Shown here one piece after another: positions 11,701 to 14,815 of a DNA stretch of 64,000 bases. The notes beneath the pieces are model-generated. The model was not told where the DNA came from. It ran no database searches and worked only from the letters and a program-made list of their open reading frames with translations. The stretch comes from the human T2T-CHM13v2.0 reference genome, Homo sapiens. Where the stretch lies: positions 37,472,001 to 37,536,000 of the forward strand of contig CP068257.2 in the NCBI GenBank assembly GCA_009914755.4. Reading direction: 5' to 3'. A program made the position numbers and the translations under genes. Every line of letters begins with the position of its first letter. Positions within the stretch are counted from its first letter, which is position 1.

Positions 11701-12446
11701 GTATCTAAAAGAGAAAAAAGGAATGAAGGAACAGCTTTTTAGGATCTTGGTGGACATTTTATGGGCATATTTACTTGTTGTTGGCGTCTTTACAGCTTTT
11801 CCCTAAAGACTATCATTATGGTAACAGATGGCTTCATCTTTAACTGCTCAGTAAATAAAAGGGCTTTAAATTTTTTTTATTAATCTCTTTTAGGTTTCAT
11901 CTCAATTATCTTAGGGGAAAAAAGGTCTCTATTGCATTGACTAGGTCTTCTTAAACAGATTAATTGGCTATGATAAATTTTTCAAAGTTAGACTCAAAAT
12001 TCACAGAACATGTAATCCTAGCCAGAGCAATTGGTGGCTTTCTGGAAAGGGACCTGCCTGACTTTCTCAGAGGCTCTCAGAATTTGCCATTACACTTTTT
12101 TGCTTTTATAGGGAGGGGAAGTGACAAGTCTTCTACCACCTGCAAAGAACTGCTTTCCTTGGTAACCTGGGGATGCGTCCGCCCCTCGGTGGATCCATCG
12201 GAAGGAAGTGCCCTGTCTCAGTGTGCAGGATGATGCAGAATTCTTTTGCCTGCCTAGAGCACCTAGCAAGGGCCAGGCTTTCCCTCTTTCATTCTTTTCT
12301 TCATTAATGCATCCAGCAAGATTTATTGAGGGCTTATCTTTGCCAAGCACTGTGCTAGGTGCTCTGAATACAGTAGTGGCCTTCACAAAGTCCCTGCCCT
12401 CATGGAGCTCACATGCTACTGACACAGACCAAATAATACATAAATA

Positions 12447-13336
12447 CAGGGGTCTCCACCCACTGGGCCACAGCCTGGTACTGGTCTGTGGCCTGTTAGG
12501 AACAGGGCCACACAGGAGGAGGTGAGCAGCAGGTAAGCGAGCACTACTGCATAAGCTCCACCTCCTGTCAGATCAGCAGCACACGATTCTCATAGGAGCG
12601 CAAACTCCATTGTGAACTGTGCAGGCGAGGGATCTAGTTGCATGCTCCTTATGAGAATCTAATGCCTGATGATCTGAGATGGAGCTGAGGTAGTGATGCT
12701 AGTGCTGGGGAGCAGCTGCACATACAGACTTTTGTTAGCCAAGAGGTTTGACTGCACAGAGACCATAATAAGTCAACTGCTTTCAGACTCATAACAAAAC
12801 CCTCTCAGTGAGTGGCAAGACACAATTAAGCTGCAGGCTTCATGGTGGCAAGTGAGCTTCAGTTGTACAGCTGCATCAAGTGGCAATAAAGGTAGGTCTG
12901 AGACAACTTCCCATCTCCATACATTCTGGATTAAAGTCAAGGCAGAATATCCTGCGGTTGCCAGAAAAGCACTGGAAAGCCTGCTTCCATTTCCAACATC
13001 CTATCTTTGTGAAGCAGGGTTTTCTGCAGTGACAGCAACCAAAACGAGATCACAAAGTAGACTGGACATAAGCACCACACTTCAGGTGTTACTGTCTCCA
13101 TCACCCCCAGATGGAACCAGCTAGTTGCAGGAAAACGAGCTCAGGGATCCCACTAATTCTACATTATGGTGAGTTGTATAATTGTTTTATTATATATATT
13201 ACAATGTAATAATAATAGAAATAAAGGGCATAAGAAATGGAATGCACTTGAATCATCCCAAAACCATCCCCCACGCCGTGGAAAAACTGTCTTCCATGAA
13301 ACCACCCTCTGGTGCCAAGAAGGTTGGGGACCACTG
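12447..13336 (+). mobile_element. Internally deleted hAT-superfamily DNA transposon (Charlie/MER1-like) with perfect 8-bp TSD CATAAATA and a hAT C-terminal dimerisation-domain remnant
   Basis: The 5' end is CAGGGGTCTCCACCC and the 3' end is GGTTGGGGACCACTG (inverted repeat). It is flanked by identical cataaata at 12439-12446 and 13337-13344. The interior contains gattctcataggagcgcaaac, the palindromic core shared with 1811-2253, and the ORF at 12852-13124 with a hATC motif. Confidence 0.8.
12852..13124 (+). pseudogene. Remnant of the hAT transposase C-terminus (hATC dimerisation domain) inside the non-autonomous hAT element
   Basis: The ORF encodes ...FWIKVKAEYPAVARKALESLLPFPTSYLCEAGFSAVTATKTRSQSRLDISTTLQVLLS... 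This matches the conserved hAT C-terminal pattern (e.g. Charlie/ZBED-type ...FW...K..YP.L...AL..L.PF.TTYLCE.GFS.L...KTK.RNRL.....LR..LS...). Confidence 0.65.
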
Positions 13337-14815
13337 CATAAATACACCTGGAATATCACATCAGGTAGGGAAGAAAAATAATGCCATGAAAGGAGACAGA
13401 TAGAGTCCTGGGCAGGTTGAGGGTCAGCAAAGAAACCTTTCTGAGGACCCTGAATTTGAGCAGAGACCTGAATGAAGCGAGGGAGGAAGCCAAATAAATA
13501 TCTGGGAAGATTTTTCTAGACCAAGGAAACAGCAGTCCTGACCAGGAAATAAGGTTGTTGCATTAAAGGAGCATCCAATAAAGGTTAAAGAAACAAGGTA
13601 GCAGGTGGTGAGAAATGAAGCTGAGAAGATAAGGCCAGGTCACGTAGTTTTTGCCAGCCATTCTCAGGAAATTGGATTTGATCTTTTTTTAATGAAGTTT
13701 TCCCTCTGTCTTCCCTCTTTACTACAATGCACTTAAGTGTGGTTTTCCTCATATCTATCTTGCTTGGGGTTCAGAGTCTTTTTGGAATAAGTAGTTTAAA
13801 GCCTGTCATCTGTTTGGGAAAATTTTTCATTATTATCTCTTCAGATATTACCACTCTCTCATTTTCTCCCTTCTTCTCCTTGTTAGACCTTTTACTTTGC
13901 ATCCTTATGTCTCTTGCTCTTTTCTGATTTCCTCACTTTGTGCTTATTCTAGATATTTTTCTTATTCCAGTTCACTTTCTCCTCAGCTGTGTCTAATCTG
14001 TATTAAACCTTGGGGTCTGAATTCGATATTTTTTTTCATTTCTAAAATTTTCTTTTGATTCTGTTTTATACTTTCTAGTTCTCTGCCAAAATCCCCAATT
14101 TGTATTTATTTCCTTGACCATATTAAGCATGGTTATTTTAAATCCACAAATTTAGATATATGTCTCTCTCTCAACACTGTCTTGTCTCCTCATGCACCAG
14201 GTTATTTTGGTTGCATGCCAGACAATGTACATGAAATACATGGAGATATGGAAGAATGTTACCTTTTTCCAGACAGAAATTACAGTTACTTATGTCTGGA
14301 ATCTATGGGCCCTAACAATCCCTAACCTCCTTAATCCAATCTGGGGTTGAACCAATTCAAACCTGGCTTAATTTATTGCAAATGCCAGACTATTTTAGAT
14401 CAATTTTTACTCCTAGGCTGTACCCTTACGTGGTTTTCCCAACACAAATACTGAGATAGTTGTGGGGGAGGGGACTCTGGGTCTCAAGTTCCTTGCAGAC
14501 CCTGAATGCCCATGTCTGTTCTCCTATCCCTGTTGTCTATCAACAGCTCTATTAGCTTCTCACTCTCTCAGGCACCTCTTCTGGAAAAAGGATACCTAGG
14601 GGAAAGTGGTCACAATGCTGGCTCACCTTTCTGTATTTTATTTCTCTCCCAGATCTTGTCCCTAAAATTATTGACTGCCTTGTGAACTGTCCAGTGCCTT
14701 CAGATATTTTTAATATTTTCTTCTTTTCTAGCTATTCTCAGGAAAAGGATTGGCTTTTATTGTATGTGTGCAGAAAAAATTGCTCGCAAAAATTACCCAA
14801 ATTCTCCACCCCTCC

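What the first reader, a model, noticed from the sequence alone, without database searches (positions are those of the whole stretch)
12439..13344. hAT element with perfect 8-bp TSD (CATAAATA) that keeps the transposase C-terminal dimerisation domain
The precise flanking 8-mers and the CAG...CTG inverted termini define an 890-bp hAT insertion. The ORF at 12852-13124 inside it carries the hATC signature ...FWIKVKAEYP...LPFPTSYLCEAGFSAVTATKTRSQSRLD...LQVLLS. The short copy at 1811-2253 lacks this segment, so the window holds a deletion series of one family and lets the internal breakpoints be mapped. An intact 8/8 TSD on a mammalian hAT fossil is notable. Either the element is younger than typical MER1-group copies, or the site has been conserved.
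Basis: partly seen in the sequence, partly recalled or inferred. Interest (0 to 1): 0.55.

Follow-up and report, generated by a model that had tools for sequence, protein, structure and literature searches.

The report
Decayed Charlie-type hAT transposon deletion copy
This is an ordinary, long-dead "cut-and-paste" transposon fossil in a primate genome: an internally deleted copy of a known Charlie-type hAT family that keeps only the tail of its transposase gene, and its perfect 8-bp target duplication is what about one copy in five of this age would show.

Summary
CATAAATA flanks an 890-bp element (12447-13336) on both sides. The element has CAG...CTG termini that match 12/15 as inverted repeats.

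The element is a non-autonomous deletion copy of a ~2.65-kb Charlie/Buster-type hAT transposon. I rebuilt that parent from 28 paralogous copies. About 1.74 kb is missing at a GTGGC junction (12880-12885). The copy keeps only the last 95 of 623 transposase codons, with a 1-bp frameshift and mostly nonsynonymous decay.

The short copy at 1811-2253 carries a larger deletion that encloses the long copy's deletion, so the deletion series holds.

The direct PF05699 hit is below threshold (13.9 bits against a cut-off of 21.4). The domain call rests instead on full-length relatives that pass the cut-off over the residues aligned to this ORF.

The claim that the intact duplication is notable, or that the copy is young, fails. 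This copy is 10.1% diverged, the most of 30 sampled. At that divergence a perfect duplication has a probability of about 0.2.

The likely name is Charlie3 for the long copy and MER1A for the short one. That rests on the literature and my memory, because Dfam was not available. Already known; low interest.

The parts
12439..12446 (.). Left target-site duplication, CATAAATA
   Evidence: D9. It directly precedes the element's CAG.
12447..13336 (+). The 890-bp non-autonomous Charlie-type hAT element. The transposase sense strand is +.
   Evidence: Both ends are homologous to family copies from the first CAG to the last CTG. The rebuilt 2485-bp consensus matches 12625-12885 and 12880-13331.
12447..12461 (+). 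5' terminal inverted repeat, CAGGGGTCTCCACCC
   Evidence: 12/15 match to the reverse complement of the 3' end. The short copy and L060 begin with the same motif.
12540..12700 (.). Sub-terminal imperfect palindrome inherited from the family (arms 12540-12594 and 12650-12700)
   Evidence: Inverted repeats I1, I7 and I11. The same self-complementarity appears in the consensus and in L060. No Rfam family matches it.
12880..12885 (+). Internal deletion junction. About 1.74 kb of the full-length element is missing here, at a GTGGC(A/C) microhomology.
   Evidence: Element positions 179-439 match consensus 3-282, and positions 434-885 match consensus 2024-2480. The same junction occurs in L060 and in peptides P0005, P0023, P0055 and P0109.
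12852..13124 (+). It is a chimera: 12852-12879 comes from the 5' non-coding region, and 12880 onward is the transposase C-terminus.
12870..13156 (+). Remnant of the transposase C-terminus. Residues 529-608 of 623 are in one frame. Residues 606-623 plus the original stop (TAA, 13154-13156) are in the next frame.
   Evidence: tblastn of the rebuilt 623-aa transposase against the window: 75% identity over 80 aa, then 83% over 18 aa. It includes the LCEAGFS block that aligns to PF05699-positive regions of P0149 and P0200.
13098..13099 (+). 1-bp deletion in a C run (consensus CTCCCATC, here CTCCATC). It shifts the reading frame and creates the premature stop at 13122-13124.
13322..13336 (+). 3' terminal inverted repeat, GGTTGGGGACCACTG
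13337..13344 (.). Right target-site duplication, CATAAATA
1811..2253 (-). Second, shorter copy of the same family (443 bp, MER1A-like). Its deletion joins consensus position 55 to 2231 at a TG microhomology (window 2059/2060). Relative to the long copy it lacks the equivalent of 12677-13086.
   Evidence: It is 85.9% identical to the consensus over the 3' 255 bp.
1803..1810 (.). Flanking 8-mer of the short copy, TTCTAAGC. Its partner is TTCGAAGT at 2254-2261, a 6/8 match.

Best explanation
The segment 12447-13336 is a dead, non-autonomous copy of a Charlie/Buster-clade hAT DNA transposon in a primate genome, most probably the Charlie3 family. A hAT transposase supplied in trans cut the element out and pasted it into the target CATAAATA. 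Repair of the staggered 8-bp cut duplicated that target. The element that inserted was already an internal-deletion derivative. About 1.74 kb of a ~2.65-kb parent had been lost between two GTGGC motifs. That loss fused the 5' non-coding region to codon ~530 of a 623-codon transposase gene. Other copies share the same junction, so the ~0.9-kb form was itself mobilised and multiplied. After insertion the copy decayed neutrally. The 443-bp copy at 1811-2253 is another deletion derivative of the same family (MER1A-like), with a larger deletion that encloses the first. Shown here: the target duplication, the termini, homology to a rebuilt full-length element and transposase, both deletion junctions, the frameshift, and the divergence. 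Inferred: the cut-and-paste mechanism and trans-mobilisation (general hAT biology), and the Repbase/Dfam family name.
For: The 8/8 duplication abuts CAG...CTG termini that match 12/15 as inverted repeats. Similarity among copies ends exactly at CTG and the flanks differ. A 2485-bp consensus built from 28 paralogous copies recovered from host DNA in metagenome contigs carries a nearly open 623-codon frame. That protein is 42% identical over about 640 aa to the hAT part of a SCAND3/ZBED9-like protein (E=6e-173). It is also 41% identical to a 647-aa protein that carries DUF4371 and Dimer_Tnp_hAT (E=8e-150). The window ORF aligns to PF05699-positive residues of P0149 and P0200 (E=2e-19 and 7e-19). 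The profile search found 3859 relatives. Both junctions were mapped with microhomology. The long-copy junction is shared by L060 and by four independent peptide fragments. Neutral decay is shown by 14 nonsynonymous against 3 synonymous changed codons, a 1-bp frameshift, 10.1% divergence and 42% of CpG sites mutated. Other primate copies have duplications of the nnnTAnnn type, including the short copy here. That is the Buster-clade pattern as I recall it from Arensburger et al. 2011. The literature states that MER1A and MER1B derive from Charlie3 by deletion. It also reports that Charlie3 turns up in cow, bat and dolphin as well as primates (PMC5753468, PMC1914374, PMC3525145). That matches the gray-whale hit at 78% identity.
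Against: Pfam PF05699 does not reach its gathering score on this ORF (13.9 bits against 21.4). It gives no hit at all on the consensus C-terminus or on the rebuilt 623-aa protein. No solved structure matched by sequence, and the AlphaFold model was too poor to use. The link to hAT is therefore transitive, through full-length relatives. The duplication CATAAATA lacks the central TA seen in the other eight primate copies. The family name could not be tested against Dfam or Repbase. The 30 comparison copies were selected for a preserved protein motif, so their lower divergence is biased.
Confidence: 0.93

Rival explanations
1. The two CATAAATA 8-mers are a chance match, or part of a pre-existing direct repeat, and were not made by insertion.
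For: The sequence is AT-rich and low in complexity. The 8-mer occurs 5 times on the + strand of the window. The match runs to 10 nt, which could suggest the repeat is not bounded by the element.
Against: The 8-mers sit exactly at element ends that were defined independently by homology to about 30 other copies. The chance of 8/8 at fixed positions is about 2e-5. The repeat does not extend upstream of 12439 or beyond 13346. Eight bases is the length expected for hAT.
Confidence: 0.01
2. It is a hAT-Charlie element, but from a sister family (for example Charlie12/MER30-group or another Charlie) rather than Charlie3/MER1A-B.
For: Dfam and Repbase were not available. The literature names two late-acting Charlie groups in primates, Charlie12 and Charlie3 (PMC1914374). 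The Charlie3 assignment rests on my memory of the MER1A/Charlie3 consensus ends.
Against: The rebuilt length (~2.65 kb) fits Charlie3. So does a short derivative with the junction ...GATGATCTG|TCACTGTCTCCCATCACC, which I recall as MER1A. The cetacean relative fits the odd 'Primate+' distribution reported for Charlie3 (PMC3525145). As I recall it, the MER30 consensus is unrelated in sequence.
Confidence: 0.1
3. The retained C-terminal coding fragment is under constraint, either exapted as an exon or regulatory element or kept by gene conversion. That would explain the legible motif and the intact duplication.
For: A 75-nt run without any change (12976-13050) covers LLPFPTSYLCEAGFSAVTATKTR. Under uniform placement of the copy's 53 differences this has P of about 0.004.
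Against: The run is post hoc, because the finding was chosen for the legibility of this motif. The rest of the frame shows 14 nonsynonymous against 3 synonymous changed codons, a frameshift that removes the last 15 residues, and a non-coding 5' fusion. The run contains no CpG. No Rfam match was found. Overall divergence is the highest in the sample.
Confidence: 0.03

Closest known systems
Charlie3 (hAT-Charlie) and its deletion products MER1A and MER1B in primate genomes (Repbase/Dfam)
   Same: It has an 8-bp target duplication and CAGGGGTCCCCAACC-type inverted termini. The parent is about 2.65 kb and encodes a transposase of about 620 aa. Non-autonomous internal-deletion derivatives share both ends. 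Related copies occur in a cetacean, in line with the patchy distribution reported for Charlie3 (PMC3525145). The short copy's junction matches what I recall of MER1A.
   Different: The 890-bp form has its own junction (consensus 282 joined to 2024). It is neither the MER1A-like junction (55 to 2231) nor, as I recall it, the MER1B junction. I could not check whether it has its own library entry. The name itself was not tested against a repeat library.
SCAND3/ZBED9, FAM200A and other Buster/Charlie-derived domesticated hAT genes
   Same: The rebuilt transposase is 42% identical over about 640 aa to the C-terminal hAT part of a SCAND3-like protein. The window ORF aligns to that protein's PF05699-positive segment.
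   Different: Those are intact host genes under selection. The window fragment is a truncated, frameshifted, neutrally decaying remnant inside a mobile element bounded by inverted termini and a target duplication.
Hermes, hobo and Ac (the classical hAT transposases that define Pfam Dimer_Tnp_hAT, PF05699)
   Same: It has the 8-bp duplication and short inverted termini. Its C-terminal block has the pattern W-x5-YP-x-hA-x2-AL-x3-hPF-x-S-x3-E-x2-FS-x6-K-x3-R-L. PF05699 aligns collinearly to it (profile positions 19-77 of 84).
   Different: The score is below the Pfam cut-off (13.9 bits against 21.4). No sequence match to the solved Hermes structures was found. The family's target preference is nnnTAnnn, not the Ac-type nTnnnnAn, as I recall both from the literature.

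Membership tests
hAT superfamily of DNA transposons | 8-bp target-site duplication | tested here: met
   CATAAATA is 8/8 at both element ends. The short copy has 6/8.
hAT superfamily of DNA transposons | Short terminal inverted repeats beginning CAG (YARNG-type) | tested here: met
   The termini match 12/15 here. The two ends of the family are about 14/15 (CAGGGGTCCCCAACC against CAGCGGTCCCCAACC).
hAT superfamily of DNA transposons | Transposase carrying the hAT C-terminal dimerisation region (Pfam PF05699), scored directly on this ORF | tested here: not met
   E=0.048 and 13.9 bits, below the gathering score of 21.4. Only this ORF, of the 36 sequences in the alignment, reaches even E<=0.1. 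The consensus C-terminus and the 623-aa consensus give no hit.
hAT superfamily of DNA transposons | Homology of the ORF to proteins in which PF05699 passes its cut-off over the aligned residues | tested here: met
   P0200 has PF05699 at 32.9 bits on residues 469-534, and the ORF aligns to 480-543 (E=7e-19). P0149 has 23.1 bits on 1243-1296, and the ORF aligns to 1231-1310 (E=2e-19). P0173 and P0213 also pass.
hAT superfamily of DNA transposons | RNase-H-like DDE catalytic core in the full-length transposase | not tested
The 90-aa ORF model had pLDDT 48.5. A weak DUF4371 hit on relative P0213 is only indirect support.
Buster/Charlie clade of hAT | Target-site preference nnnTAnnn (criterion recalled from Arensburger et al. 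2011) | tested here: inconclusive
   The other eight primate copies checked, including the short copy here, have TA at positions 4-5. This insertion's CATAAATA does not: it has AA at 4-5 and TA at 3-4. The preference is statistical, so one exception does not exclude membership.
Buster/Charlie clade of hAT | Full-length transposase similarity to Buster-derived proteins (SCAND3/ZBED9 type) | tested here: met
   42% identity over about 640 aa, E=6e-173, to P0149, which also carries the SCAN, Znf_SCAND3 and rve domains.
Charlie3 / MER1A / MER1B (Repbase/Dfam) | Best match of the DNA to the curated family consensus or HMM | not testable with these tools
   No Dfam or Repbase library was available. 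The name rests on my memory of the consensus ends and junction, and on literature stating that MER1A/B derive from Charlie3 (PMC5753468, PMC1914374).
Charlie3 / MER1A / MER1B (Repbase/Dfam) | Autonomous parent plus internal-deletion derivatives that share both termini | tested here: met
   The ~2.65-kb consensus, the 890-bp form and the 443-bp form share both ends and have nested deletions.

The most novel reading that the evidence does not exclude
Two modestly novel readings remain open. First, the ~0.9-kb form may be a separately amplified, possibly unnamed, non-autonomous subfamily. One junction (consensus 282 joined to 2024) is shared by at least five independent copies. Second, the parent family may have moved horizontally across phyla. 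Its consensus transposase C-terminus is 78% identical over 126 aa to a spider protein and about 83% identical over aligned blocks to a catfish protein. Young copies with perfect duplications also occur in an unidentified non-primate host.
Probability: 0.3. Interest if true: 0.25.

Novelty: already known. Interest (0 to 1): 0.07.

Why it matters
It matters little. Internally deleted hAT-Charlie fossils with recognisable target duplications are among the best catalogued repeats in primate genomes, and this copy behaves as a neutral relic. There are two practical lessons. First, a perfect 8-bp duplication carries no age or constraint signal at about 10% divergence. Second, Pfam PF05699 is insensitive to the Charlie/Buster clade, so a sub-threshold hit should not be read as absence of the domain. 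The window does give a clean worked example of nested deletion junctions with microhomology.

Tried and rejected
- A global MAFFT alignment of the short and long copies misplaced the short copy's 5' half. I replaced it with local alignments to the rebuilt consensus and a separate 5' alignment.
- Pfam on the ORF, on all 36 sequences of the alignment, on the 169-aa consensus C-terminus and on the 623-aa consensus gave no hit above the cut-off.
- PDB sequence searches with the family profile and with the 623-aa consensus returned nothing meaningful, and no Hermes hit.
- AlphaFold2 on the 90-aa ORF with the 36-sequence alignment gave mean pLDDT 48.5 and pTM 0.29. That is unusable, so I ran no fold search.
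- Rfam over the whole window gave no match, so the sub-terminal palindrome is not a curated miRNA or other RNA family.
- Pace & Feschotte 2007 (PMC1832089), which would give family ages, is not held.
- I considered shifting the duplication by one base to recover a central TA (ACATAAAT). I rejected this because it breaks the CAG/CTG symmetry and gives only a 7/8 match.
- A terminus-like motif at about 30225 had no other similarity to the family and was dropped as chance.
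Full report
**Observation**

The sequence is as described. CATAAATA lies at 12439-12446 and again at 13337-13344. Between the two lies an 890-bp segment that starts CAG and ends CTG. The repeat finder reports the direct repeat as 10 nt, CATAAATACA (D9). The two extra bases are the first two bases of the element's own CAG, which happen to match the right flank. Nothing matches upstream of 12439 or beyond 13346, so the 8-mers are not part of a longer pre-existing repeat. 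The ends pair as CAGGGGTCTCCACCC against the reverse complement CAGTGGTCCCCAACC, 12 of 15. The ORF at 12852-13124 and its peptide are as quoted. Alu marker motifs, and the absence of rodent, carnivore, ruminant and other SINE markers, place the window in a primate.

**What the element is**

The 90-aa ORF found 160 relatives.
- Most are short fragments called on host DNA in metagenome assemblies, at 60-80% identity.
- A few carry names: SCAN domain-containing protein 3, and FAM200A-like.
- One comes from a gray whale, and others from spiders and fishes.

A scan of metagenome contigs returned 80 loci. About 35 of these are primate paralogues, several of them explicitly from human skin metagenomes. 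In the longer ones the window element matches in two blocks about 1.74 kb apart. From 28 copies I rebuilt a 2485-bp consensus that begins at about element position 177, so the full-length element is about 2.65 kb. Its frame 0 is nearly open for 623 codons. The only interruptions are three TGA codons, which I read as decayed CGA, and one local frameshift in the zinc-finger region.

That protein is homologous to hAT-type proteins along its whole length:
- It is 42% identical over about 640 aa (E=6e-173) to the C-terminal part of a 1325-aa protein with SCAN, Znf_SCAND3, rve and Dimer_Tnp_hAT domains. That is the SCAND3/ZBED9 architecture.
- It is 41% identical (E=8e-150) to a 647-aa protein with DUF4371 and Dimer_Tnp_hAT.

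The family is therefore a Charlie/Buster-type hAT transposon.

**The hAT C-terminal domain**

- The ORF scores 13.9 bits (E=0.048) against a gathering score of 21.4, level with a spurious Tom37 hit.
- None of the 35 homologues in the alignment reaches even E<=0.1.
- The consensus C-terminus and the 623-aa consensus give no hit.
- PDB sequence searches found nothing.
- An AlphaFold model of the fragment was unusable, with pLDDT 48.5.

The assignment nevertheless holds by transitivity. A profile of the family found 3859 relatives. Four of the full-length relatives checked (P0200, P0173, P0213, P0149) pass the PF05699 cut-off (23.0-32.9 bits) in their C-terminal regions. For P0149 and P0200, direct alignment shows that the hit covers the residues matching the window's FWIKVKAEYP...LPFPTSYLCEAGFS...RLD block (E=2e-19 and 7e-19). 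The weak direct hit is also collinear with the model (profile positions 19-77 of 84). My conclusion is that the domain is present, and that the Pfam model is simply insensitive to this clade.

**Anatomy and breakpoints**

Against the consensus, element positions 179-439 match consensus 3-282, and element positions 434-885 match consensus 2024-2480. The two blocks overlap on GTGGC(A/C). The junction therefore lies at window 12880-12885, and about 1.74 kb is missing.

It follows that the first ~10 codons of the quoted ORF (VSFSCTAASS) are translated 5' non-coding sequence, not transposase. tblastn shows that the element keeps transposase residues 529-608 in one frame and 606-623 in the next. A 1-bp deletion in a C run at 13098-13099 shifts the frame and creates the stop at 13122-13124. 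The original stop is at 13154-13156.

The same junction is present in locus L060 and in four independent peptide fragments (P0005, P0023, P0055, P0109). The deletion therefore predates insertion, and the ~0.9-kb form was itself mobilised.

**The short copy**

The short copy (1811-2253, minus strand) joins consensus position 55 to 2231 at a TG microhomology (window 2059/2060). Relative to the long copy it lacks the equivalent of 12677-13086, and it keeps only the last 23 codons. Its deletion encloses that of the long copy. The 5' ends of the long copy, the short copy and L060 align from the first base. The data cannot say whether the short form arose from the full-length element or from an intermediate.

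**Is the intact duplication notable?**

It is not. I compared the copy with a CpG-restored consensus of the 3' 455 bp.
- The window copy is 10.1% diverged overall and 8.7% at non-CpG sites, and 42% of its CpG sites are mutated.
- It is the most diverged at non-CpG sites of the 30 primate copies compared (overall, one other copy is level with it). The other 29 have medians of 6.1% and 4.2%. That sample is biased toward well-preserved coding motifs.
- At 8.7-10.1% divergence, the chance that all 16 duplication bases are unchanged is 0.18-0.23.

Neither a young age nor site conservation is needed to explain the perfect duplication. The coding remnant looks neutral: of 17 changed codons, 14 are nonsynonymous.

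One oddity is a 75-nt run with no change (12976-13050) across the conserved motif. It has P of about 0.004 under uniform placement of the differences. This is post hoc, because the finding was picked for the legibility of that motif, and the run contains no CpG.

**Target preference**

The other eight primate copies for which a flank could be read, including the short copy here, have TA at positions 4-5 of the 8-mer. As I recall from Arensburger et al. 2011, that is the Buster-clade pattern nnnTAnnn. This insertion's CATAAATA does not fit it. I treat it as an atypical target. Shifting the frame by one base to recover a central TA breaks the terminal symmetry and the 8/8 match.

**Name and comparison with what is known**

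The literature held here supports the Charlie3 assignment in two ways.
- It states that MER1A and MER1B are deletion products of Charlie3, and that these elements were active in the late period of MER1-group activity (PMC5753468, PMC1914374).
- It reports that Charlie3 has an unexpected distribution that includes cow, bat and dolphin (PMC3525145). The gray-whale relative at 78% identity agrees with that.

The termini, the ~2.65-kb length and the short copy's junction match what I remember of Charlie3 and MER1A. No repeat library was available, so the name remains untested. I put it at about 0.85, with a sister Charlie family as the alternative.

**Verdict**

This is a real, correctly delimited and entirely ordinary hAT-Charlie fossil.
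- The descriptive claims stand.
- The Pfam criterion fails directly but is rescued by transitive homology.
- The claim that gave the finding its interest, a notably intact duplication implying youth or constraint, is not supported.
- Novelty: already known. Interest is low.

Noticed in passing
window 40087-40662 (+): A stop-free 192-aa frame matches ribosomal protein L23 (Pfam Ribosomal_L23eN 93.6 bits, Ribosomal_L23 45 bits). It has no introns and sits in AT-rich sequence, so it is most likely an RPL23A-type processed pseudogene.
   Followed up: partly
window 16681-17057: A long, imperfect purine-rich microsatellite (AGGA / AGAAGGAA units, 61-75% matches). It produces several spurious long ORFs on both strands.
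   Followed up: partly
P0090 (Parasteatoda), P0058/P0077 (Araneus), P0120 (Tachysurus), P0115 (Polypterus), P0040 (Eschrichtius): The primate family's consensus transposase C-terminus is 78% identical over 126 aa to a spider protein. It is about 83% identical over aligned blocks to a catfish protein. That is unusually high for such distant hosts, so horizontal transfer of this hAT lineage is a candidate explanation.
   Followed up: partly
L044 1642-3392; L067 822-3177; also L046/L047/L051/L052, L075/L077/L080: JGI metagenome contigs from an unidentified non-primate host hold related elements of about 1.7-2.3 kb. They have CAGGGGTCGGCAACC-type termini and perfect 8-bp duplications (TTGTAGAG, CTTTATGC), which suggests recent activity in that host.
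   Followed up: no
window 12976-13050: A 75-nt run has no difference from the family consensus, across the LLPFPTSYLCEAGFSAVTATKTR motif, in a copy that is otherwise 10% diverged. P is about 0.004 under uniform placement of the differences.
   Followed up: partly
L060 438-1185; peptides P0005, P0023, P0055, P0109: At least five independent copies share the window element's deletion junction. The ~0.9-kb form therefore amplified as its own non-autonomous subfamily. I could not check whether it has a library name.
   Followed up: partly
Pfam PF05699: The Pfam Dimer_Tnp_hAT model misses this Charlie-type family entirely, both the consensus and the fragments. It only just passes on several full-length relatives (23 bits against a cut-off of 21.4). 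Domain-based screens will therefore under-call this clade.
   Followed up: yes
window 12540-12700: An imperfect sub-terminal palindrome of about 160 nt lies in the element's 5' region and is conserved in the family consensus and in L060. It could fold into a long hairpin. No Rfam family matches it.
   Followed up: partly
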